Part shown: piece after piece, positions 3,513 to 42,951 of the stretch
How positions within the stretch are numbered: the stretch's first letter is position 1
Layout of the letters: each line of letters opens with the position of its first letter
Origin: Escherichia phage SM_W22
Length of the DNA: 44,245 bases
Strand: one strand, 5' to 3'
Sequence record: PP920555.1
Position numbers and translations under genes: made by a program
Notes under the pieces: model-generated
What the model was told of the DNA's origin: nothing
Databases searched by the model: none
The model's input: only the letters and a program-made list of their open reading frames with translations

Positions 3513-4599
3513 TCAATATTTGGCGGATCGAATGATTCGCCGTCACATCTTCACCCAGCGCCTGAGCAATGATCAGGCGCGGAGGGTGCTGGCTATGTGG
3601 GAGAAGTTCCGGCCCACTTTACTTGGTAAGCTGACCGAGTTACTTGATGGCAAAAAGTCCATGAGCAACAAGGCACTTACCTCACTGTTAACGCAACTCG
3701 ACAAGACCGTCAAAACGGAACTGCGCGCCGAGTTTAAAGTGCTGGCGGAGAGCCTTCAGGAGTTCGCCGACACCGAGGCTGATTATCTCGCGGACACACT
3801 AACGGCAGCGATCCAGCCCGCTGTCGCCGTACCCGCTGTTGAAGTAGTTGGCGTTGTTACCGGCGCGCAGATTGCAGCGACGGCAATGAAAAACCCGTTC
3901 CAGGGTAATACTATGATGCAATGGCCTGATTCCCTTTCCGAGTGGACCAGGACGCAGATCGGGAATCAGGTGCGCGCCGGATTCATCCAGGGCAAGCCAA
4001 CGATGGAAATTATCGCGGACGTGAGGCGCGCGCTCGGCGGTCGTAGTGCGCAAGCAATCTCAAGCGTTGTTAAGTCCGCGGTCAACCACTATGCGGCGAC
4101 CGCCCGCGAATTAATGGTAAAAGCTAATGACGATATTCTCGAAGGTCGCCAATGGTTGGCTACATTGGACACGCATACTTCTCCCATGTGCCAGCTACGC
4201 GATCGCCTGTTTTATCCGGTTGATGTTACTCCCGACACCAAAGGAAAACGCGGCGGGAAAATGGTGGCTGGGTCACAATATGGCGCTGGTCCGGGCAAGC
4301 TGCATTATTGCTGCCGTTCGACGGAGACGTGGAAAGTCAAAGGTATGGAAGATTGGCCCAGTGGTAAGCGTCCGGCACTGAAGGCTGACGCGGGCCGATT
4401 GCTGAGTGAGCAGGTCGACGCGCAGACTGATTTCTTCTCCTGGGTGCAGCGCCAGCCGCGCCATATCCTGGAAGAATTATATGGAGTGCAACGCGCCGAC
4501 CAGATTATGCGCGGCGTGAAAGTGCCGAAGATGTTTACCGATTCTGGCGAACTGATGACTATTGCACAGCTTAAAAACCGGGGGTTATGGCGTGATTAA
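3496..4599 (+). CDS. Head morphogenesis protein (SPP1 gp7 / Mu F-like)
   Basis: 367 aa ORF overlapping portal stop; position and size typical of minor head/morphogenesis protein. Confidence 0.6.
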   Translation: MAKTVNQYLADRMIRRHIFTQRLSNDQARRVLAMWEKFRPTLLGKLTELLDGKKSMSNKALTSLLTQLDKTVKTELRAEFKVLAESLQEFADTEADYLADTLTAAIQPAVAVPAVEVVGVVTGAQIAATAMKNPFQGNTMMQWPDSLSEWTRTQIGNQVRAGFIQGKPTMEIIADVRRALGGRSAQAISSVVKSAVNHYAATARELMVKANDDILEGRQWLATLDTHTSPMCQLRDRLFYPVDVTPDTKGKRGGKMVAGSQYGAGPGKLHYCCRSTETWKVKGMEDWPSGKRPALKADAGRLLSEQVDAQTDFFSWVQRQPRHILEELYGVQRADQIMRGVKVPKMFTDSGELMTIAQLKNRGLWRD

Positions 4600-4900
4600 A
4601 TATGCAGCGATCGGACTGGTTATCGGTCTGGTGGTAGGATTCTGGCAGGGTGATTCCTACCGCGCTGCCGTTGTGGCGAGAGCAGCGCAAGAAGCGCAAG
4701 CGAAAGCCCAACGGCAGCAAACTAAGGTTGTCGAGGGGGCAGTGCAGGAAGAACAGGCCCGCGATGTGGAATACCGGACTATCACGAAAGAGGTTGTGAA
4801 ATATGTTACGCGTCCTAACCGTCCTGATTGCAGTTTTGATGCTGAGCGCGTGCGGATCAAGCAAAGCGCCATTGATGCCGCTAACCGAGTCGGTCTATAG
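4562..4900 (+). CDS. i-spanin (Rz-like); probable true start at GTG near 4592
   Basis: N-terminal hydrophobic TM segment (AAIGLVIGLVVGF) followed by charged coiled-coil region (AAQEAQAKAQRQQ); contains embedded lipoprotein ORF in +1 frame. Confidence 0.6.
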   Translation: MHSLKTGGYGVIKYAAIGLVIGLVVGFWQGDSYRAAVVARAAQEAQAKAQRQQTKVVEGAVQEEQARDVEYRTITKEVVKYVTRPNRPDCSFDAERVRIKQSAIDAANRVGL

Positions 4901-5033
4901 ACCGCCTTGCACCTTTGAGAATGCCTCGGCAGATCCAGACGAAGACTTGCTGGTTGATGTTAAGAATATGGAGTGTGGTGCGAAGCTGCGGGCGCAAGTG
5001 CTGGAGTTGCAGAAAATAATTCGGGGGCCGTGA
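4803..5033 (+). CDS. o-spanin (Rz1-like outer membrane lipoprotein)
   Basis: Signal peptide with lipobox LSAC, proline-rich mature part with Cys; overlaps i-spanin in different frame. Confidence 0.65.
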   Translation: MLRVLTVLIAVLMLSACGSSKAPLMPLTESVYRPPCTFENASADPDEDLLVDVKNMECGAKLRAQVLELQKIIRGP

Positions 5034-6401: not shown

Positions 6402-6424
6402 TGCAACCAATATATGCAACCAAT
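6402..6424. promoter_or_regulatory. Two direct copies of TGCAACCAAT motif in divergent intergenic region
   Basis: TGCAACCAAT at 6402-6411 and 6415-6424, between minus moron start (6373) and scaffold start (6528). Confidence 0.4.
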
Positions 6425-11993: not shown

Positions 11994-12375
11994 GAAGCGG
12001 GACAGGCGGGACGTCCCGTTTTGTCCCGCCTCTGTAAAACTGCATATCTACTCACTTCCACTGCATAAACTCAAAACGGGACAAGCGGGACGTCCCGTTT
12101 TGTCACGCCCTGTAAATATGCATACCTATGCAGATTTCGTGCATAAACCAAACGGGACAGAAAGCGGGACAAACAAGGGGCGGGACAAAGCGGGACAGCA
12201 CCCCATCCCCGCCAGTGCTGCCGCGGTTTTTAGCCGATCGGGACAGCGGGACAGCACCCCAGTCTTTCAGACTAGACGGGGGTCTATGGCCCCCCTCGTC
12301 TGAGACTGAATAAGGTTTGTTTTGAAATCGCTGATACAATATCCATCGGCAACTGCATAAAAAGGGGACTGCATA
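11994..12375. repeat. Iteron- and palindrome-rich noncoding region (copy A of duplicated element at about 12111-12313)
   Basis: About ten CGGGACA units, perfect palindrome CGGGACGTCCCG twice, CTGCATAA motifs; last roughly 200 bp near-identical to 39447-39654. Confidence 0.75.
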
Positions 12376-25379: not shown

Positions 25380-25403
25380 TTGCAACCAACCTATTGGTTG
25401 CAA
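25380..25403. promoter_or_regulatory. Palindromic pair of TTGCAACCAA motifs
   Basis: TTGCAACCAA-ccta-TTGGTTGCAA perfect inverted repeat; third partial copy TTGCAACG about 10 bp downstream. Confidence 0.45.
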
Positions 25404-25723
25404 GTGAATTTTGCAACGTTTATTGCGTAAATTTTCGGAACCAGATCGCCACACGCCCGACGAATTGCCGCGATGTTCTTCTCGCAATCTTCAATGATGA
25501 CCAGTTCCGACACGTCTGCGTAGCAGACCATTTTGAACACGGCGCACGCCTTAAACTCTGGCGGCGGGGTGTCGTCCAGCATGTGGCGCATGAACAATCG
25601 ACCTACGGGGAAGACCTTCAGTTGTTCGGCGGTCGTGTCCCAACATTCGCGCTGCCGGTTTGTCAGATACGCGATCTCGAAGCCTTGCTCTTTGTACATG
25701 CGCAGCAGCGGCAGCATATCCAT
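25391..25723 (-). CDS. HAD-like hydrolase C-terminal portion (gene appears frameshifted relative to upstream ORF 25551..25937)
   Basis: LPLLRMYKEQGFEIAYLTNRQ and MLDDTPP resemble HAD motifs II-IV; an N-terminal VDRDPAVVD motif-I-like segment lies in another frame upstream. Confidence 0.4.
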   Translation of the reverse strand: MDMLPLLRMYKEQGFEIAYLTNRQRECWDTTAEQLKVFPVGRLFMRHMLDDTPPPEFKACAVFKMVCYADVSELVIIEDCEKNIAAIRRACGDLVPKIYAINVAKFTCNQ

Positions 25724-25917
25724 GTTCAGATCTTCGCGGACGTGCGCTTCGCGCAGTAAAGGAGTTGCACACGAAATGGCAACGCTGAGTCATGACAAGC
25801 CAACCGGTGAGGTCAAGGCCCAGGATGTATTCGGGGCGAGACGCGCGCACCACACGATTGCGTCGCGGGTCAATACCGTAGTCTTTTTGCATTTGGTCTA
25901 CTACCGCGGGGTCGCGG

Positions 25918-26403
25918 TCAACGATTAAGATATTCAAGGAGTTCTCCTTCGCTCATTATTTCAATTTGTGCGCTGCCGATGGGCGGCGCTTCGTCAAATA
26001 TTATCAATTGCTGGCATTTGTTATTGCTCGGCCCGACTTCACCGGTGACGGCGTGAATGAATCTAATCCGCCAGTCCAGAAGAATTATCAGGTTTGCAGT
26101 CTTCCGGGCCATCCTCGCCCACTTCGTCGACGTGTCCTGATTCAGCAGCATGACAGTCCGGCGTCCGTGCGCCGCGCACTCTACCCACGGCAGCGGATCG
26201 GAATACGGCGGATTGCACCACTTCCACCCTTTCAACTCGGACCAGTCCACATCAAGCGCGCTATGTTCTGCTGTGAAGTAACGCGGTAGCAGGTGGTTGG
26301 CATCGCTTGCCGCCATATCGTAACGGAATCGGTATTTCCGACGAAGCGGTTTGAATAAAGCTGGCGGCGTGCGCCAGCTATCTTTTTGCTCACTCTCCGT
26401 CAT
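25918..26403 (-). CDS. DNA N6-adenine methyltransferase (phage Dam family)
   Basis: WRTPPALF near N-terminus and NPPYS catalytic motif; track ORF trimmed to Met at 26403 giving a 14-nt overlap with upstream gene. Confidence 0.75.
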   Translation of the reverse strand: MTESEQKDSWRTPPALFKPLRRKYRFRYDMAASDANHLLPRYFTAEHSALDVDWSELKGWKWCNPPYSDPLPWVECAAHGRRTVMLLNQDTSTKWARMARKTANLIILLDWRIRFIHAVTGEVGPSNNKCQQLIIFDEAPPIGSAQIEIMSEGELLEYLNR

Positions 26404-26854
26404 TCTGCGGGTCCAGTGCGTAAAGGGCAATCTTTTCGCCTTTGCCTCGGGTAAGTACGCGCTGGACCCGCGCCATCTCATCCTTGCCAAGAGGTCGGCA
26501 ATCGGAATAGTAGCTGCCGTTCGCACGCCACGCTACCAGCACCAGGTCTTTCCTGTCGATCGAAGACCGGCGACCCTTCGGGCGCACGTATTCCTCGGCC
26601 CGTTTGCAATGCTCGCGCAGGCCGTCGGCGGTGATGCGGTTTAGCGCAACGCTGGTTGTGTATCCGGTGCGCTGCATAATCCCCATCAATTCGAAAAGTA
26701 GTTCGAAGCGCTCCTCTATCTCCTGGCGCACTTTCTTCTCGCCTTCGTATAGCGCCTGGTTGGTGTCCGCCAGCGCGCTGACGCGTTCGACCTGTTCGCG
26801 GGCTTCGAGGCATTGCGCGGCCCAGTAATTTTTCTCTTCTTGTAAAATTTTCAT
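26390..26854 (-). CDS. Hypothetical protein (coiled-coil N-terminus)
   Basis: 154 aa ORF; no motif recognised. Confidence 0.5.
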   Translation of the reverse strand: MKILQEEKNYWAAQCLEAREQVERVSALADTNQALYEGEKKVRQEIEERFELLFELMGIMQRTGYTTSVALNRITADGLREHCKRAEEYVRPKGRRSSIDRKDLVLVAWRANGSYYSDCRPLGKDEMARVQRVLTRGKGEKIALYALDPQNDGE

Positions 26855-26908: not shown

Positions 26909-26935
26909 TGCAACCAATATGATTATGCAACCAAT
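26909..26935. promoter_or_regulatory. Two direct copies of TGCAACCAAT
   Basis: Copies at 26909-26918 and 26926-26935 in intergenic gap upstream of minus gene starting at 26854. Confidence 0.4.
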
Positions 26936-33714: not shown

Positions 33715-33738
33715 CTTGGTTGCCAATTTACTTGGTTG
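33715..33738. promoter_or_regulatory. Two copies of TTGGTTGC (reverse complement of GCAACCAA) upstream of SSB gene
   Basis: Copies at 33715-33723 and 33730-33738, in gap between minus genes. Confidence 0.35.
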
Positions 33739-33749
33739 CGCTTAAGCGG

Positions 33750-36727: not shown

Positions 36728-37057
36728 ATGAATATCAAAGAAGCAATTGAAGTGTTATCTAATGCAATCCGCGGCGAAGCGGGTAAATCCTGGTATTACA
36801 CAAATGCGGTGGATACTCTGTTATTTGAAGTGTCCAGATTATCGCGTGCTGAGAAGGAGCTTACCGCGAAGCTGGAATTGCTCAACGGCACGGCAGCAAG
36901 CAAGCTGCAAAAACACAATGAAGAAATGGAAGAATACAAAAAACAGGTTATCCGTCTACGTGAGGAAGGTAAATCCTGGGCGATGATTGCCGAGTTGACC
37001 GGAATTAATCAGAGCACAGTGCGCTCCTGGGTACGCAATAATAAAACTTCTAAGTAA
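36728..37057 (+). CDS. HTH DNA-binding protein (putative transcriptional regulator)
   Basis: 109 aa; C-terminal helix-turn-helix-like segment SWAMIAELTGINQSTVRSWV; first gene of rightward operon; RBS CAGGAGA. Confidence 0.55.
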   Translation: MNIKEAIEVLSNAIRGEAGKSWYYTNAVDTLLFEVSRLSRAEKELTAKLELLNGTAASKLQKHNEEMEEYKKQVIRLREEGKSWAMIAELTGINQSTVRSWVRNNKTSK

Positions 37058-37067
37058 GGCCACGGCA

Positions 37068-39332
37068 ATGAGCTTAATTAAATTCGCTGTAACAAGACCC
37101 GCTAAAAAAGGCGAAAAAGCCAGGGCGGAAAACTTCCAGATGACGACCGATGAATTTTTCGAATTTATCAAAGATGCGAAAGAGATATCGTCGGTGCATA
37201 TCAACAAGACGGAAGATAAAGCCGAGTATGCGCGCCGCAAGCGTAAGGCCGATGGCATCGTGGCGTATACCAGTGACGGATTGCGTCGTAAGACCAGTGC
37301 GGTGGACCTCTCGATCCTGTTCTTTGATATTGACCGCACCGACACCCGCACCCTGCGCCGCTGCCGTAAGGCGTTCATCGACTCGGGTCTGGAACACGTA
37401 TTTCACACCACCACCGGCGACCGCCACCCGCTGAAGGGCGGCACGCGTTGCGCCCGTTTCCTGGTGCTCACTGACAAGCCTGTACCGGCTGAAGACCTGG
37501 GCCGCGTCCAGTATGCACTATTACACCAACTGGGTCTGTCAGATGTGGACTTCGACGATTGCACGAAAGATACAAACCGCCTGATGTACCTGCCACACCA
37601 GCAGTCCGTTATTAAGTGCCACTATGGCAAGCGCGCCAATGTGCGTCGTCTACTCCGTCGGGCGGACAAGCTGGGGGTGGAAAAAGAGGAAGTACGCCGC
37701 GAGCTTACCCAGGGCGACGACGCAGTGGCAGACGGCATTCTGGACTGGTGCTTCCAGGCCGGATTCGAGGAGTTATCTTCTGGTCGCGGTTATGAAGTGC
37801 CGTGCCCGAACGAACATCTGCACAGCGGCGAAGGGTCGACGGCTATCATGGTCAAGGATGGCGAGATCCGTTTCAAGTGTATGCACACCGGCAACGAGTG
37901 TTGCTCGGAGCTGAACAGACACCAGCACCTGGCGCTACGTCTTATCGGGATCCCGGACCACCTGAACGTCGAGCCACACAACATGTCCCGTAAGCAAATC
38001 GCCGCCATCCTCCCCGGACTGGACGACGAGGAAGTGGAATCGTGCTATGAACATATCGTTGATGCGGTCGGAGACGGCGACGAGTACGGCGGATGTACCG
38101 ACGCTGACCTGGATAACGAACCGGTCGCACTGTTCAGTAAGCACGACCCGATCATAGAAGGCCTGGTCAACTTCAAATCGACCTGGTATATGGCTGGCGA
38201 GTCGAACATCGGTAAATCGTTCTACGTGCTGGGGCAAATGGGTGCGGTTGCCGCGGGGATTCCGTTCGGCGGTGCGAAGGTCGTCCAGTCCCATTGCTTC
38301 TATTTCGACGCGGAAGGTGGCGAAGCCTCCAACCAGCGTAAGGAAGCATTGCAGATCAAATACGAGCACGACCTCGACAAGCTGCACATTATCGATCTGC
38401 AATCACGCGGCTGGGATATCACCAGCAAATCCGGCTTGCGTGAAGTTATCAGCTTCATCAACCGCACCGCTAACGGCGAACCGGTTGGCCTGGTGGCGTT
38501 CGACTCACTCAACCAGACGGTTGCGCTGCGGTCCGCCGATGCCAAACCGTTCGACGAGAACAACGCCAGCGATATGGGCGAAGTGGTCAAGGCGCTGAAG
38601 GCCATCGCGGAAAATACAGGCGGCAGTGCGGGCGTCATCCACCACCCGGCGAAGGGTGCAAACGGCAGCAGATCACCCCGCGGGTCCGGCGCGCTGCATG
38701 GTGCTGTCGATTCTGCGTTCTTCCTGGAGCAACCGGACGACAATCAACCAGGCCAATTGAACCTGTATCACGAAAAGGCACGTAACGGCATCAAGCAAGC
38801 GCCGCGTGGCTTCGTCCTGCTCAAGTGCAAGGTGAAGGTAGATCTCCGCAAGTCCGAGGCGTTCGAATCGCACCAGTCCACCAGCACCGGGCCTGACTTC
38901 GGCGACGTCGTTGCCGGTTGGGACGTCAAGCCGATTGCCTCCACGCCACGCGACGAGACTCTGTACCTCGTACCGGTCGCCCTGGCACCGTTCGCCATCG
39001 AACAGGCGAAGGCCGCAGGAAAAGCCGCGGTTAAGGAAGAGAACACCGCAGGACCGCGCACCGAAAAAGAAAAGGTACTTTACGCGGCCCTGGAAAAACT
39101 GATGGAAGATAACCCGGACCATACTGGTTTCAGTAAATCGGCAATCGTCCGCCAGGCGGGATTGGCAAAAGGTGGAACATCGACGAAGGCAATCGACGAT
39201 ATGGTCGAGCGCGGCGTACTCGGTTTTTATACCGATCCGCACACCGGGGCCATCTATGGGTCGTCTAATATCGTCATAAAAACAAACATACCAACCACAC
39301 TTTCGGCGACCGACGACGACTTAAAAGATTAA
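37068..39332 (+). CDS. DNA primase / replicative helicase (primase-polymerase N-domain plus RecA-like ATPase)
   Basis: 754 aa; N-terminal region with DxD (FFDIDRTD) and Cys/His cluster, central Walker A-like GESNIGKS. Confidence 0.7.
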   Translation: MSLIKFAVTRPAKKGEKARAENFQMTTDEFFEFIKDAKEISSVHINKTEDKAEYARRKRKADGIVAYTSDGLRRKTSAVDLSILFFDIDRTDTRTLRRCRKAFIDSGLEHVFHTTTGDRHPLKGGTRCARFLVLTDKPVPAEDLGRVQYALLHQLGLSDVDFDDCTKDTNRLMYLPHQQSVIKCHYGKRANVRRLLRRADKLGVEKEEVRRELTQGDDAVADGILDWCFQAGFEELSSGRGYEVPCPNEHLHSGEGSTAIMVKDGEIRFKCMHTGNECCSELNRHQHLALRLIGIPDHLNVEPHNMSRKQIAAILPGLDDEEVESCYEHIVDAVGDGDEYGGCTDADLDNEPVALFSKHDPIIEGLVNFKSTWYMAGESNIGKSFYVLGQMGAVAAGIPFGGAKVVQSHCFYFDAEGGEASNQRKEALQIKYEHDLDKLHIIDLQSRGWDITSKSGLREVISFINRTANGEPVGLVAFDSLNQTVALRSADAKPFDENNASDMGEVVKALKAIAENTGGSAGVIHHPAKGANGSRSPRGSGALHGAVDSAFFLEQPDDNQPGQLNLYHEKARNGIKQAPRGFVLLKCKVKVDLRKSEAFESHQSTSTGPDFGDVVAGWDVKPIASTPRDETLYLVPVALAPFAIEQAKAAGKAAVKEENTAGPRTEKEKVLYAALEKLMEDNPDHTGFSKSAIVRQAGLAKGGTSTKAIDDMVERGVLGFYTDPHTGAIYGSSNIVIKTNIPTTLSATDDDLKD

Positions 39333-39345
39333 ATTCTGCGCGCGT

Positions 39346-39442
39346 TGGTTGCCGATATGTGGATCCCCATATCGCTAAAAGACTAAATTTTGCGCGCATT
39401 GGTTGCCATTTTGAGTGTTTTTATCCAGTCGCATTGGTTGCC
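39346..39442. repeat. Three direct copies of GCGC(G/A)TTGGTTGCC-containing repeat flanking a GGATCC-centred palindrome
   Basis: TAAATTcTGCGCGCgTTGGTTGCC and TAAATTtTGCGCGCaTTGGTTGCC 54 bp apart, third GCATTGGTTGCC copy downstream; GATATG-tggatcccc-CATATC hairpin between. Confidence 0.6.
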
Positions 39443-39446
39443 GTGT

Positions 39447-39654
39447 AGTGTAAATATAATGAATAGTTATGCAGTTTTGCTGCATAAAGTAAGCGGGACA
39501 AAAAGCGGGACAAACAAGGGGCGGGACAAAGCGGGACAGCACCCCCGTCCCGCCAGTGCTGCCGCGGTTTTTAGCCGATCGGGACAGCGGGACAGCACCC
39601 CAGTCTTTCAGACTAGACGGGGGTCAATGGCCCCCCTCGTCTGAGACTGAATAA
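39447..39654. repeat. Copy B of duplicated roughly 205 bp iteron element (GCGGGACA repeats)
   Basis: Aligns by eye at roughly 90-95% identity with 12111-12313, including five GCGGGACA units and a GC-rich terminal hairpin. Confidence 0.75.
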
Positions 39655-39804
39655 AATCCGGAGATTGCAAAATACACGGCAACATGATGCGAAGTGCGGT
39701 CGTCGATGAACTAGGCAACCAATGCGGGTTGTATTATGCTGAGTGAAAAATGCAGTTTGCAGCCACAGCAGATAGCGATCAACTTTTTCATACGCGTGAT
39801 TAAT

Positions 39805-39844
39805 ATTGGTTGCATCCGTGCCAGCACCCTGCTATATTGGTTGC
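39805..39844. promoter_or_regulatory. Two direct copies of ATTGGTTGCA upstream of 39869 gene
   Basis: Copies at 39805-39814 and 39835-39844, 30 bp apart; a further GCAACCAAT at 39714-39723. Confidence 0.4.
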
Positions 39845-39868
39845 ACATCAACATGAGGACTGAACAAA

Positions 39869-40345
39869 ATGAAATTTCCAGTAATCATCAAAGACGGTAA
39901 ATCAACTATCACCTTCACCAGCAACGACCACGGCACTTACGAGAGCGGCGCGGCTTGCATGTCCACCCTGGAAGATATGATGATTCGTGTTAATTCAGGT
40001 AAAGCCTCAATTATTACCACCCTCGCGGAGAGTACCAAAATGAAAGCACTAATCTGGAATTACTCACTGGCCCTGGCAAAGCTGAACGAAGCGAAGGCGC
40101 TGAACGGCAACGTAGACCGTGCGCGCCAGTTTGCGACACTGGCACACCAGTCAATCATGTGTGCGCTAGACGATATGGACGCCAGCATGGATGGCCTGGG
40201 TCCGCTGCGTAAGGCAATCCATGAATACGCGCTGGCATTCTCCCGTGAGCGCCTGGCTTATCGCTTCGGTATTGGCGAGAAGGCAGTGACAAACGTCGCC
40301 AGGATTAAAGCCCAGCGTGAGCTATTCGCCCAGCTTGCGAAATAA
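39869..40345 (+). CDS. Hypothetical protein
   Basis: 158 aa ORF with RBS GAGGA; no motif recognised. Confidence 0.5.
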   Translation: MKFPVIIKDGKSTITFTSNDHGTYESGAACMSTLEDMMIRVNSGKASIITTLAESTKMKALIWNYSLALAKLNEAKALNGNVDRARQFATLAHQSIMCALDDMDASMDGLGPLRKAIHEYALAFSRERLAYRFGIGEKAVTNVARIKAQRELFAQLAK

Positions 40346-40354
40346 GGGGCTAAA

Positions 40355-40624
40355 ATGGGACGTAGACGAGCAAAACAGCTTTCGTGGCATATTCCCCTGC
40401 ATTGCATACGAATATGGGCTGAGAATGCAGTTGAGGGCGATTCTGTGTACTGGTGCTATCGCGACGACGTAAAGCCGTTGACGCAGACTCGCTACTTGCA
40501 CCAGTTCGCAGCACAACACGATTTCAGGGTGCGGACTTCCTTGCAACCAATGGGGATTCGTATTACATTACGCCGGAAGCCCGCCGTTGAGCGGGTAGGC
40601 AAACACTGGAGACTGAGCAAATGA
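40355..40624 (+). CDS. Hypothetical protein
   Basis: 89 aa basic ORF; contains TTGCAACCAAT motif near its 3' end. Confidence 0.4.
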   Translation: MGRRRAKQLSWHIPLHCIRIWAENAVEGDSVYWCYRDDVKPLTQTRYLHQFAAQHDFRVRTSLQPMGIRITLRRKPAVERVGKHWRLSK

Positions 40625-41166
40625 AATTACTATTCCGCCGCAACCACGACGGCTGTATCGTGGAGCCGGTCCAGGTAATGGCCTTGACTAAGAACGTGCT
40701 CCTATGCCACCAGGCAAGCGGCAAAGTATTCCGCACGCCAACCAGCACGCTGCCGCAGTTCTTCACAGTCCACACCCACGATATTGAGCGCGGCGATGTG
40801 CCGCGTAATATTCGCGACGGGCAACTGTGGGTCGTCGAGTACACCTCCCAGCACGGCTTGCGTATGCAGACCCGCAAGGGCGGCGTATCGGGCAACATGA
40901 TTAGGGGTATGACGTACTTCGGGCTAATCCACTACGAGCGCGTGGGGCGCAAGTACAGACTCCGCAAGTCGCAGCCAGCCTATGCGACCTACGACGCCCA
41001 CCAGGTGCAAGCGAAGATGGGCCGTGCCATACACGAAATCGTCAATCGCTTTGATGCCGTCACGAATGCACAGCGCCATGCGCAGGAATATGGCGTGGGG
41101 CTTATCCGGGTAGAACAAGACGGCAGCATGAAAGCTATCGACCCGCGCTCGGTGATTCTGAAATGA
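40621..41166 (+). CDS. Hypothetical protein
   Basis: 181 aa ORF, ATGA-coupled to upstream ORF. Confidence 0.5.
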   Translation: MKLLFRRNHDGCIVEPVQVMALTKNVLLCHQASGKVFRTPTSTLPQFFTVHTHDIERGDVPRNIRDGQLWVVEYTSQHGLRMQTRKGGVSGNMIRGMTYFGLIHYERVGRKYRLRKSQPAYATYDAHQVQAKMGRAIHEIVNRFDAVTNAQRHAQEYGVGLIRVEQDGSMKAIDPRSVILK

Positions 41167-41385
41167 GCGCGTCTATCCGTGATATGCTGATGCATAACCG
41201 ATTTGAGATAGGCGGTCGGGTATTTCGCAATTACTTCGTGGCGCGTGCATGGGCGCGCCATATTGGCAAACCGGAAGGGGCAATTCGATGCTATACGTCT
41301 TCGCGGTAGTATGTGGCGGTAGTCTGGCGGCCCTGGTGCTGTTGGCGTCGGTTATTAGTCTGGTTAAATACCTATGGGGCAGATT

Positions 41386-41673
41386 ATGATTCATGATGTG
41401 ATTTATTGGTTTGGTTTGATCTGCGGGCTGTGCCTGCTTACCGCGGTGCTGTTGGGCATCCTGATGTTCGTCGTATGGCCTGCAGTGGAAGCCGCCAGCA
41501 TTACCCGCATGACGTTCGAGGTATACAAGCGCCGCGGGATCACGGAGCACCCGACCAGGTTGCGCATGTGGTGGCTGTGGTATCGGGATATGATAGGCGG
41601 GCGAACATTCGAGGCCGTCCGGTCGAGTGGATGGGAGTGGAAAGGCGTCGGCAAGTGGTCCATTTTCGATTAA
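41386..41673 (+). CDS. Small membrane protein
   Basis: Track ORF trimmed to Met; hydrophobic TM segment (WFGLICGLCLLTAVLLGILMFVVW). Confidence 0.45.
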   Translation: MIHDVIYWFGLICGLCLLTAVLLGILMFVVWPAVEAASITRMTFEVYKRRGITEHPTRLRMWWLWYRDMIGGRTFEAVRSSGWEWKGVGKWSIFD

Positions 41674-41690
41674 TTATGCAAGCGTGATAT

Positions 41691-41725
41691 AGTCCCAGTG
41701 AGCTAAAACTTACTGGGACTTTTTT
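41691..41725 (+). terminator. Hairpin plus T-run immediately upstream of holin gene
   Basis: AGTCCCAGT-12 nt loop-ACTGGGACT perfect 9-bp stem followed by TTTTT, ending at holin ATG. Confidence 0.5.
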
Positions 41726-42016
41726 ATGGATAAGCTAAACGAGTGGTTATTTGCCCTCGCATGTCTGGCAGGCGGCTTCGTAGGCGCACGCATTCACGGC
41801 GAGGCTACGAAAGGGCCGCTAAACTTCGTGTTATATATCGTAGTTGGCTTCCTGTGTGCCATCTTTGGTGCGCCAGCTATCGCCGAGTGGGCTGGCTTAT
41901 CTGGCGAGCGCACTGTCGCCGGTTTGGGCTTCGTAACTGCAATCTTCTGGATGCCAATAGCAGCCCGGATCAGGGAGACTATTGAGTCGTTCCGACTTCC
42001 GGGGGGCGCAAAATGA
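41726..42016 (+). CDS. Holin-like membrane protein
   Basis: 96 aa with three hydrophobic segments and charged C-terminus; directly upstream of second membrane protein and endolysin. Confidence 0.5.
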   Translation: MDKLNEWLFALACLAGGFVGARIHGEATKGPLNFVLYIVVGFLCAIFGAPAIAEWAGLSGERTVAGLGFVTAIFWMPIAARIRETIESFRLPGGAK

Positions 42017-42752: not shown

Positions 42753-42920
42753 ATGTTAAAAAGTATTCTTGATCATAATGCGGACGCGCTCGCCGCGCTG
42801 GCTAAAACCGAAGACCCTGGCGCACGCGCTATCATCGCGGACACTATCAGCCATGCAGGCGTCTTTGACGCGAAGCTGCCTAGCCCGCCGCCACAGGAAG
42901 AATCTGACCCAGTGACGTAA
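42753..42920 (+). CDS. Small hypothetical protein (coordinates approximate)
   Basis: About 55 codons after AGGTGA RBS, ending just before terminator; below track cutoff. Confidence 0.3.
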   Translation: MLKSILDHNADALAALAKTEDPGARAIIADTISHAGVFDAKLPSPPPQEESDPVT

Positions 42921-42926
42921 ACAATC

Positions 42927-42951
42927 AAGCCCGGTTAATTCCGGGCTTTTT
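42927..42951 (+). terminator. Intrinsic terminator after lysis cassette
   Basis: AGCCCGG-ttaatt-CCGGGCT hairpin followed by T6. Confidence 0.75.

What the first reader, a model, noticed from the sequence alone, without database searches (positions are those of the whole stretch)
39869..41673. Block of unknown-function genes between replication and lysis modules
Three ORFs (158, 89 and 181 aa) plus several small membrane ORFs (41163-41673, including two under 50 aa) have no motif I can recognise. They sit just downstream of motif-bearing promoters and just upstream of the holin genes. Such blocks commonly encode host takeover, lysis timing or anti-defence functions.
Basis: inference. Interest (0 to 1): 0.4.

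Follow-up and report, generated by a model that had tools for sequence, protein, structure and literature searches.

The report
Accessory small-gene operon of a Dhillonvirus
This is a real, tightly packed operon of six small genes that almost every phage of the Dhillonvirus genus carries between its replication and lysis genes; its function is still unknown, but two of its genes are the fastest-evolving shared genes among the five genomes compared, which points to a role in dealing with the host rather than in lysis.

Summary
The window is a near-complete Dhillonvirus (HK578/SO-1-like coliphage). The ORFs at 39869-41673 are real. They are conserved in about 150 sequenced relatives, under purifying selection, and linked by ATGA-type overlaps. 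A conserved sigma-70-like promoter precedes them and a near-invariant intrinsic terminator separates them from the holins. No Pfam, NCBIfam, PADLOC or PDB match exists; all but one belong to 'unknown function' PHROGs.

Corrections to the finding:
- The 158-aa ORF fuses a mobile ~50-aa module to the resident 101-aa gene, modelled as a four-helix bundle.
- The 48-aa ORF is a soluble, basic, almost invariant protein, not a membrane protein.
- The membrane ORFs are best read as 33 aa and 95 aa.

The 181-aa protein is modelled, at modest confidence, with SH3/Tudor-like barrels. It and the 101-aa protein are the two most divergent of 50 genes shared by five genomes, ahead of Ksap1 and anti-Tmn, the two Dhillonvirus proteins with published immunity roles. 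Both of those lie outside the block.

The spanins are encoded 37 kb away, and relatives of the 95-aa protein sit away from lysis genes in other phages, so a lysis-timing role is not supported.

Most likely this is a non-enzymatic accessory operon acting on the host (takeover, anti-defence or immune trigger). It is an ordinary, already catalogued block with unknown function.

The parts
39810..39838 (+). Sigma-70-like promoter of the block: TTGCAT (39810-39815), 17-nt spacer, TATATT (39833-39838). A TTGGTTGC motif overlaps each hexamer (39806-39813 and 39837-44).
   Evidence: Read from the sequence. In 12 relatives both motifs and the hexamers are conserved while the spacer varies. ATTGGTTGC occurs 14 times in the window against 0.48 expected. 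The promoter scan did not list it, so it is an inferred promoter.
39869..40039 (+). A_N: the first 57 codons of the 158-aa ORF. It is a mobile small-protein module, fused in frame here to the next gene.
   Evidence: AlphaFold pLDDT is below 50. tblastn finds it in 25 phage records, 17 of them among the Dhillonvirus-type coliphages; it is a separate 56-aa gene in WFI. It also occurs in the early region of a Slopekvirinae podovirus and in Klebsiella and Aeromonas phages. The same N-terminus is joined to unrelated C-termini in P0213, P0226, P0228 and P0232. P0228 ends in a Stp-like PF08133 domain, E=7e-11.
40040..40345 (+). A_C: the 101-aa core protein (phrog_9839). An internal ATG with a GGAG ribosome-binding site marks the start used in most relatives. 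Predicted four-helix bundle with a variable first half and a near-invariant C-terminal helical hairpin.
40355..40624 (+). B: 89-aa basic protein (pI 10.9, net charge +11), phrog_12533. Restricted to the genus and present in nearly all members.
   Evidence: 156 records, 60-99% identity; dN/dS 0.17; 55 of 89 positions invariant; the cysteines are not conserved. Its stop overlaps the start of C (ATGA).
40621..41166 (+). C: 181-aa basic protein (pI 10.1), phrog_10243. N-terminal SH3/Tudor-like beta-barrel region, a linker that varies in length, and a C-terminal helix plus hairpin. It is the most divergent shared gene of the genome.
41163..41309 (+). D: 48-aa soluble, very basic protein (pI 11.2), phrog_13628. 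Almost invariant; its start overlaps the stop of C (ATGA).
   Evidence: 151 records, most above 90% identity; dN/dS 0.05; no hydrophobic segment; 35 of 48 positions invariant.
41288..41389 (+). E: possible 33-aa single-pass membrane peptide. The maximal ORF is 41249-41389 (46 aa). It is an optional insert.
   Evidence: Annotated as 33 aa in GeorgBuechner and SM_S22. A GGAAGGGG ribosome-binding site precedes ATG 41288, and none precedes 41249. Present in 5 of 12 relatives with almost no variation. No PHROG family. Similarity to the membrane segment of F is weak (8 of 1000 shuffles score as well).
41386..41673 (+). F: 95-aa protein with one N-terminal membrane helix and a conserved, tryptophan- and arginine-rich 64-aa C-terminal domain, inferred to face the cytoplasm. 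phrog_2531. An alternative start at 41374 gives 99 aa.
   Evidence: most homologues are 95 aa; hydropathy 2.86; ATGA overlap with the stop of E. (variation confined to the membrane helix; the C-terminal domain is almost invariant). (476 phage records, including 302 Salmonella phages). (46 cluster representatives among 1.84 billion proteins; nearly all stand-alone proteins of about 90-130 aa with no informative domain fusion). The topology is inferred from charge distribution, not tested.
41691..41726 (+). Intrinsic terminator closing the block: 12-bp stem, 6-nt loop, then a T-run that runs into the holin ATG at 41726.
   Evidence: terminator scan. (-24.1 kcal/mol, z = -5.8 against shuffles). 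(the 52-nt stretch between F and the holin is almost invariant in 12 relatives, with most changes in the loop). Also annotated as a terminator in phage WFI.

Best explanation
The block is the genus-specific accessory operon of a Dhillonvirus. One host-type promoter (39810-39838) drives six translationally linked small genes, and an intrinsic terminator (41691-41726) ends the unit before the lysis genes.

The products are four small, strongly basic soluble proteins (A, B, C, D) and one or two small inner-membrane proteins (E, F). None carries a catalytic motif.

I think they most likely act by binding host or phage macromolecules at the phage-host interface: host takeover, inhibition of a defence system, or being sensed by one. 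They are not part of the lysis, replication or virion machinery.

Within the operon, A_C and C are the rapidly diversifying components, while B, D and the soluble domain of F are conserved. The position directly after the promoter is a slot where small genes are exchanged between phages.

Shown: gene reality, operon anatomy, conservation pattern, lack of known domains, evolutionary rates, the exchangeable slot. Inferred: the timing of expression, binding as the mode of action, and the host-interface role.
For: Anatomy:
- ATGA or short overlaps link B, C, D, E and F, and each gene has a ribosome-binding site.
- The promoter and terminator are conserved in relatives.

No enzyme or structural signature in Pfam, NCBIfam, PADLOC or PDB sequences. 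The fold models give only a four-helix bundle and SH3/Tudor-like barrels, both typical binding modules.

All soluble products are basic, pI 9.7-11.2.

Evolution:
- Against SM_S22, jat, Envy and Opt212, C (mean 53.5% identity) and A_C (55.1%) rank first and second of 50 shared genes. The Ksap1-locus protein is at 69.4% and anti-Tmn at 77.8%, while primase, polymerase and capsid are at 97-99%.
- pN/pS is 0.60 for C and 0.49 for A_C, against 0.43 for Ksap1, 0.25 for anti-Tmn and 0.03-0.09 for core genes.

Gene exchange: at least four different gene arrangements follow the same promoter and leader. The A_N module is shared with a T7-like phage early region and with a Stp-like fusion protein.

Possible dispensability: a fusion of the N-terminal part of C to the C-terminal part of F, lacking D, E and the membrane helix of F, occurs in two independent metagenome assemblies in an otherwise normal context.
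Against: - There is no experimental or homology-based link to any host target or defence system. PADLOC found nothing, and the published Dhillonvirus immunity-related proteins all map outside the block.
- pN/pS stays below 1 everywhere, so fast evolution could be relaxed constraint plus recombination between alleles rather than an arms race.
- B, C, D and F are present in almost every member of the genus. That fits a conserved life-cycle role at least as well as a dispensable accessory one.
- The model of C has modest confidence (pLDDT 62.7), and its structural matches are to a very common fold.
- The deletion variant comes from low-coverage metagenome contigs, and its viability is unknown.
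- Expression timing was not measured.
Confidence: 0.5

Rival explanations
1. Transcription control. The block would be the counterpart of the lambdoid nin-Q region. A_C would be an autoregulated DNA-binding protein recognising the TTGGTTGC motifs at its own and other promoters. C would contact RNA polymerase through Tudor-like barrels. Together they would switch the phage to late (lysis and structural) transcription past the terminator at 41691-41726.
For: - The layout (replication genes, small genes, terminator, lysis genes, terminase) resembles lambdoid phages; this comparison rests on my own knowledge.
- A_C is the first conserved gene after a promoter whose -35 and -10 are each overlapped by an invariant motif. 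That motif is 30-fold over-represented.
- The invariant segment RERLAYRFGIGE(T/K)AVTNVARI fits the classical helix-turn-helix residue pattern, and there is a weak HTH_Tnp_4 hit with E = 0.1-0.2.
- All soluble products are basic.
Against: - A much better motif-binding candidate exists upstream: the 109-aa protein at 36728-37057 passes the Pfam thresholds for HTH_23 and Sigma70_r4_2.
- C is hypervariable, whereas host RNA polymerase is conserved.
Confidence: 0.18
2. Replication or origin accessory factors. The basic, conserved proteins B and D (possibly with A_C) would bind the GCGGGACA repeats of the adjacent repeat region (39333-39868) and help the neighbouring primase-helicase start replication. 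F would tether this activity to the membrane.
For: - The block directly follows the primase-helicase gene and a repeat region with five GCGGGACA copies. The motif occurs 13 times in the window against 2.3 expected, with a second cluster at 11997-12253.
- B and D are highly basic, present in nearly all members of the genus and well conserved, matching the invariant repeats.
Against: - No similarity to any known initiator or DNA-binding family.
- The block has its own promoter after the repeat region.
- A deletion variant lacks D.
- F homologues in Jerseyvirus and Klebsiella phages lie among late genes, not next to replication genes.
Confidence: 0.12
3. Lysis timing. The small membrane proteins E and F would be antiholins or holin modulators that belong functionally to the adjacent lysis cassette.
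For: - F ends 52 nt before the first holin gene.
- Its Jerseyvirus homologue lies about 0.9 kb downstream of the endolysin.
- Both E and F have a single membrane helix.
Against: - A strong, near-invariant terminator lies between F and the holin.
- F has no match to any PHROG in the lysis category or to a Pfam holin family.
- The cassette already has two holins and an endolysin, and the spanin pair is at 4562-5033.
- In Klebsiella phage MK54 the F homologue sits between the large terminase and portal genes, about 5 kb from the endolysin.
- E is absent from 7 of 12 relatives.
- A deletion variant that keeps the holins lacks the membrane helix of F.
Confidence: 0.1
4. Superinfection exclusion. 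F (with E) would sit in the inner membrane and block DNA entry of related phages, while the soluble proteins have unrelated roles.
For: - The architecture is that of a small bitopic membrane protein.
- The family is scattered over several phage genera at varying genome positions, as expected of a mobile accessory gene.
- The comparison with known small membrane exclusion proteins rests on my own knowledge.
Against: - Relatives are annotated with a separate cor-type exclusion gene next to the tail-fibre genes.
- The conserved part of F is the domain inferred to face the cytoplasm, not a periplasmic one.
- No homology to known exclusion proteins was found.
Confidence: 0.08

Closest known systems
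The orthologous hypothetical-gene block of sequenced Dhillonviruses (SO-1 gp49-gp53, GeorgBuechner bas16_0053-0059, SM_S22 CDS0057-0064, and the HK578_049 and HK578_054 genes cited in the WFI annotation)
   Same: Same order, same neighbours and the same PHROG families. Identity to the window is 91-100% for D and 74-100% for F. Every record annotates them as hypothetical proteins.
   Different: The window carries the fused A_N plus A_C form (158 aa), also seen in jat and BMA1 but not in most relatives. It has the optional 33-aa gene E and lacks the 50-aa insert found between B and C in SM_S22.
Ksap1 and anti-Tmn, the two Dhillonvirus small proteins with published immunity roles (PMC11564622, PMC11846954)
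   Same: Small proteins of unknown biochemical function, almost confined to the genus, with fast amino-acid divergence.
   Different: Neither lies in the block. The Ksap1 locus maps to about 25722-25901 (-) and the anti-Tmn orthologue to 26390-26854 (-). No sequence similarity to block proteins was noticed. No immunity phenotype has been reported for any block gene.
Lambdoid nin region (small genes between the replication genes and Q/lysis); comparison from my own knowledge
   Same: A run of short, overlapping, mostly uncharacterised genes between the replication and lysis modules, followed by a terminator and then holin and endolysin genes.
   Different: No sequence relationship to any Nin protein was found. 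There is no recognisable Q-type antiterminator, and this is a virulent phage.
T4 Stp / anticodon nuclease activator family (PF08133)
   Same: A metagenomic protein (P0228) joins the A_N module to a Stp-like C-terminus, E = 7e-11. This places the module among small early-gene arrays.
   Different: The window's own A protein has no PF08133 match. The link is by shared module only.
CarD / Mfd / UvrD Tudor-like polymerase-interacting domains and other SH3-like barrels

Membership tests
PHROG families phrog_9839, 12533, 10243, 13628 and 2531 (all 'unknown function') | Significant full-length profile match | tested here: met
   E-values from 3.9e-50 to 1.6e-36, full-length for B, C, D and F. For A only residues 58-158 match. 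E has no family.
Holin / antiholin (lysis cassette membrane proteins), for E and F | Sequence membership in a known holin or antiholin family | tested here: not met
   No Pfam or lysis-category PHROG hit for E or F. The two downstream genes match the holin families phrog_2359 and phrog_2508.
Holin / antiholin (lysis cassette membrane proteins), for E and F | Placement in the same transcription unit as holin and endolysin, conserved across phages | tested here: not met
   A conserved terminator lies between F and the holin. The F homologue is about 0.9 kb past the endolysin in Jerseyvirus and about 5 kb from it in MK54.
Holin / antiholin (lysis cassette membrane proteins), for E and F | Effect on lysis timing | not testable with these tools
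   Needs lysis curves of deletion mutants.
Spanins (i-, o- or u-spanin), for F | Membrane helix plus periplasmic coiled-coil partnered with an outer-membrane lipoprotein gene, or a lipobox plus a C-terminal membrane helix | tested here: not met
   No partner lipoprotein gene was seen overlapping or adjacent to F in the ORF list. The window's spanin pair is elsewhere: the i-spanin at 4562-4900 and the o-spanin at 4803-5033 with lipobox LSAC. This agrees with the Jersey/HK578 spanin family of PMC6139136.
Helix-turn-helix transcription factors, for A_C | Significant match to an HTH family | tested here: not met
   The best hit is HTH_Tnp_4 at E = 0.1, 12.7 bits against a cut-off of 27. A profile search of PDB sequences found nothing.
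Helix-turn-helix transcription factors, for A_C | HTH geometry in the structure | tested here: not met
Helix-turn-helix transcription factors, for A_C | Specific DNA binding | not testable with these tools
   Needs a gel-shift assay or ChIP with TTGGTTGC-containing DNA.
CarD_TRCF_RID / Tudor-like RNA-polymerase-binding domains, for C | Fold match with good score on a confident model | tested here: inconclusive
CarD_TRCF_RID / Tudor-like RNA-polymerase-binding domains, for C | Sequence-profile membership | tested here: not met
   No Pfam hit at E up to 1, and nothing relevant in PDB profile searches.
Known anti-phage defence or counter-defence proteins | Match to PADLOC models, or identity with Ksap1, anti-Tmn or Stp | tested here: not met
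   No PADLOC hits. Ksap1 and anti-Tmn map to the minus-strand module. PF08133 is absent from the window's A protein.

The most novel reading that the evidence does not exclude
C, perhaps together with the invariant, translationally coupled D, and A_C are undiscovered immunity-interface proteins of Dhillonviruses: either inhibitors of a host defence system or the signals that a host sensor recognises. Their extreme allelic diversity, greater than that of Ksap1 and anti-Tmn, would then record an ongoing arms race. On this reading the SH3/Tudor-like barrel region of C would most likely be the recognition surface.
Probability: 0.25. Interest if true: 0.5.

Novelty: already known. Interest (0 to 1): 0.22.

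Why it matters
The block shows how much of a well-sampled coliphage genus is still unexplained. Six genes carried by nearly every Dhillonvirus, including phages of the BASEL reference collection, have no assigned role.

The comparison made here gives a short priority list for experiments. C and A_C evolve faster than the two proteins of this genus already shown to interact with bacterial immunity, so they are sensible first targets in screens for defence triggers or inhibitors. D and the soluble domain of F are the conserved parts most likely to contact a fixed partner.

The analysis also removes the block from the lysis module, which matters for annotation. None of this changes current understanding of phage biology.

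Tried and rejected
Searches that found nothing useful:
- Pfam, NCBIfam and PADLOC scans of all ORFs: no significant hit.
- Single-sequence and profile searches of PDB sequences for A, B, C, D and F: nothing.
- The AlphaFold-database library was not available.
- Exhaustive HMMER search with an F profile: 46 cluster representatives, with no informative domain fusion. The one long hit, P0313, is a repetitive protein that I judge spurious.
- Rfam on the region: one sub-threshold hit on the terminator hairpin.
- Literature: Dhillonvirus papers place Ksap1, anti-Tmn, nmad5 and the portal, SSB and polymerase triggers outside the block. A proteomics paper did not list these proteins among those detected, as far as I could map its CDS numbering.

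Ideas considered and rejected:
- F as a spanin or disruptin-like lysis factor: the true spanin pair is at 4562-5033.
- E as a tandem duplicate of the 5' end of F: protein similarity is marginal and DNA similarity is not significant.
- Zinc binding by B: the cysteines are not conserved.
- Co-variation between A_C alleles and the repeat motifs of the upstream region: the motifs are invariant, so there is no signal.
- A shared late-promoter motif like GTGATATAGT elsewhere in the genome: no other exact copy.
- Positive selection in a particular domain of C: pN/pS is uniform at about 0.5-0.6.
Full report
**What the window is.** The 3-kb stretch around the finding matches 158 phage records at 80-95% nucleotide identity. 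Almost all are Escherichia phages of the genus Dhillonvirus, such as jat, GeorgBuechner/Bas16, Oekolampad and SO-1. Gene order matches those genomes: primase-helicase (37068-39332), a repeat region, the block, two holins, an endolysin, a phosphoesterase, and then the terminase genes at the start of the window.

By tblastn, B, C and D occur in 156, 155 and 151 phage records, nearly all from E. coli or Shigella phages. F occurs in 476 records, including 302 Salmonella phages of the Jerseyvirus type and a few Klebsiella, Erwinia and Pectobacterium phages.

Codon-level comparison with 12 relatives gives these median dN/dS values:

| Gene | dN/dS |
|---|---|
| A_C | 0.41 |
| B | 0.17 |
| C | 0.37 |
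| D | 0.05 |
| F | 0.18 |
| primase | 0.04 |
| endolysin | 0.06 |

These are therefore coding genes under purifying selection.

The genes are packed as an operon. A stops 9 nt before B. B/C and C/D overlap as ATGA, D overlaps E by 22 nt, and the stop of E overlaps an ATG of F. Each start has a ribosome-binding site.

**Corrections to the gene models.**
1. The 158-aa ORF is composite. Only residues 58-158 match phrog_9839, and most homologues are 101 aa and start at the internal ATG 40040, which has its own GGAG site.
2. The first 57 codons (A_N) are a separate 56-aa gene in phage WFI and are fused in frame in the window, jat and BMA1. The same N-terminal module is joined to unrelated C-termini in metagenomic proteins from other kinds of phage. 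One of these ends in a Stp-like 'anticodon nuclease activator' domain (PF08133, E = 7e-11). The module is also a free-standing gene in the early region of a Slopekvirinae podovirus.
3. D is not a membrane protein. It has no hydrophobic stretch and a pI of 11.2.
4. E is best read as 33 aa and F as 95 aa.
5. E is present in only 5 of 12 relatives and hardly varies, so its coding status cannot be tested.

**Boundaries.** Upstream, TTGCAT-17 nt-TATATT (39810-39838) is conserved in relatives while its spacer varies. An invariant TTGGTTGC motif overlaps each hexamer. The extended motif ATTGGTTGC occurs 14 times in the window against 0.48 expected.

Directly after this promoter and leader, relatives carry one of at least four arrangements: A_N, a 59-aa gp49-like gene, a different N-terminal extension, or nothing before A_C.

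Downstream, a 12-bp hairpin followed by a T-run (41691-41726) folds at -24.1 kcal/mol, z = -5.8. The whole 52-nt stretch between F and the holin is almost invariant across 12 relatives, although synonymous sites in the flanking genes differ by 0.3-0.5 substitutions per site. The block is therefore a transcription unit separate from the lysis cassette.

**What the proteins look like.** No Pfam, NCBIfam, PADLOC or PDB-sequence match reaches significance.

- Charge: A_C, B, C and D are all basic, with pI 9.7-11.2.
- F: one N-terminal membrane helix, which carries nearly all of the variation, and a nearly invariant tryptophan- and arginine-rich 64-aa domain. From the charge distribution I infer that this domain faces the cytoplasm. 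An exhaustive profile search found 46 cluster representatives, nearly all stand-alone proteins of about 90-130 aa, with no informative fusion to a known domain.

**Evolutionary pattern.** This is the most informative result. Taking the genes of SM_S22 as reference, I compared them with the window, jat, Envy and Opt212. Fifty genes have orthologues in all four.

| Gene | Mean aa identity | pN/pS |
|---|---|---|
| C | 53.5% (rank 1) | 0.60 |
| A_C | 55.1% (rank 2) | 0.49 |
| Ksap1-locus protein | 69.4% | 0.43 |
| anti-Tmn | 77.8% | 0.25 |
| primase, polymerase, capsid | 97-99% | 0.03-0.09 |

Portal and large terminase are also at 97-99% identity.

Ksap1 is the trigger of the KpAvs2 sensor (PMC11564622). 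Anti-Tmn is an inhibitor of the Tmn system (PMC11846954). I mapped anti-Tmn to SM_S22 CDS0035 because phage SM_A8 lacks exactly that gene, as the paper states. Both lie in the minus-strand module, at about 25722-25901 and 26390-26854 of the window, not in the block.

C and A_C thus evolve like, or faster than, proteins known to be engaged with host immunity. pN/pS is below 1 and uniform along C, and phage welsh carries a recombinant allele. So relaxed constraint plus recombination between alleles is an equally valid reading of the numbers.

**Is it a lysis function?** The evidence is against it:
- The cassette already has two holins and an endolysin.
- The spanin pair lies at 4562-4900 and 4803-5033, with a lipobox. 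This matches the Jersey/HK578 spanin family of PMC6139136.
- The terminator separates F from the holins.
- F homologues are about 0.9 kb past the endolysin, just before the small terminase gene, in Jerseyvirus.
- In Klebsiella phage MK54 the homologue lies between the large terminase and portal genes, about 5 kb from the endolysin.

**Can part of the block be lost?** A 157-aa fusion of the N-terminal part of C to the C-terminal part of F removes the end of C, D, E and the membrane helix of F. It occurs in two independent metagenome assemblies, followed by normal holin, endolysin and terminase genes. The contigs have low coverage, so this is suggestive only.

**Conclusion.** The finding is real but ordinary. 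It is the conserved, already catalogued hypothetical-gene operon of Dhillonviruses.

My best explanation, at about 50% confidence, is a non-enzymatic accessory operon acting at the phage-host interface. C and A_C would be the diversifying components; B, D and the soluble domain of F would be the conserved ones.

The rivals are late-transcription control, replication-origin accessory factors, lysis timing and superinfection exclusion. Each has some positional or compositional support, and each has the specific counter-evidence listed in its entry. No published experiment addresses any of these genes.

Noticed in passing
window 6403-6424, 22514, 25382-25401, 26910-26935, 29878, 33716-33739, 36527, 39345-39441, 39715, 39806-39844, 40543: The motif TTGGTTGC(A/C) recurs, often in pairs 13-31 nt apart or as a palindrome, mostly in intergenic promoter regions of both arms. 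ATTGGTTGC occurs 14 times against 0.48 expected. It looks like the operator or promoter element of a phage regulator. The best candidate binder is the 109-aa protein at 36728-37057.
   Followed up: partly
window 40543-40551 (- strand), inside gene B: A copy of the motif lies inside gene B. The run TTGCAACCAAT is identical in all 13 sequences compared, including the synonymous positions of three codons, although flanking codons vary. With the similar site at 39715-39730 it brackets the promoter and gene A. This suggests selection at the DNA level, such as a regulator site or an antisense promoter.
   Followed up: partly
window 39493-39594 and 11997-12253: There are two clusters of GCGGGACA repeats (13 copies in the window against 2.3 expected). 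SO-1 annotates the one after the primase gene as repeat 'region B', similar to a 'region A'. The repeats are invariant in relatives, and SM_S22 carries a duplicated set. They may be replication or regulatory repeats.
   Followed up: partly
window 41674-41726: The near-invariant stretch between F and the holin contains TGATATAGT, an extended -10-like element, overlapping the 5' arm of the terminator hairpin. The 3' arm contains the GGGA ribosome-binding site of the holin. A transcript starting inside the hairpin would escape termination and free that site. This is speculation; no other exact copy of the element exists in the genome.
   Followed up: partly
window 4562-4900 and 4803-5033: An overlapping i-spanin/o-spanin pair (membrane helix; lipobox LSAC) sits between the head-morphogenesis and scaffold genes, about 37 kb from the holin-endolysin cassette.
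   Followed up: yes
window 36728-37057: This 109-aa protein is annotated in relatives as 'Gam nuclease inhibitor', 'transposase' or 'resolvase'. It passes the Pfam thresholds for HTH_23 and Sigma70_r4_2, so it is more likely a DNA-binding regulator. It is also fairly divergent (77-94% identity).
   Followed up: partly
window about 25722-25901 (-) and 26390-26854 (-): These are the orthologues of the Ksap1 locus (KpAvs2 trigger) and of anti-Tmn. They are 60% and 76% identical to the SM_S22 proteins, so their immune phenotypes cannot be assumed for this phage.
   Followed up: partly
L020 935-1408 (ENA ERZ15185719) and L021: A Dhillonvirus-like variant carries a fusion of C to F, and its contig also has no phosphoesterase gene between the Big_2 protein and the small terminase gene.
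   Followed up: partly
window 42753-42920 and 42927-42948: The gene after the endolysin is variable. It is 55 aa here, but a 135-137-aa Big_2-domain protein in GeorgBuechner, WFI and SM_S22. A hairpin with T-runs on both strands follows it.
   Followed up: no
L006 40739-40891; L002 1993-2172: Some relatives carry extra small genes in the block: an acidic 50-aa protein between B and C, and a 59-aa gp49-like protein in the slot after the promoter. A 50-aa protein of Dhillonvirus 011D5, which I did not match to either gene, resembles one barrel of C structurally, but not significantly (BFVD rank 35, E = 0.18, TM 0.86 over 52 columns).
   Followed up: no
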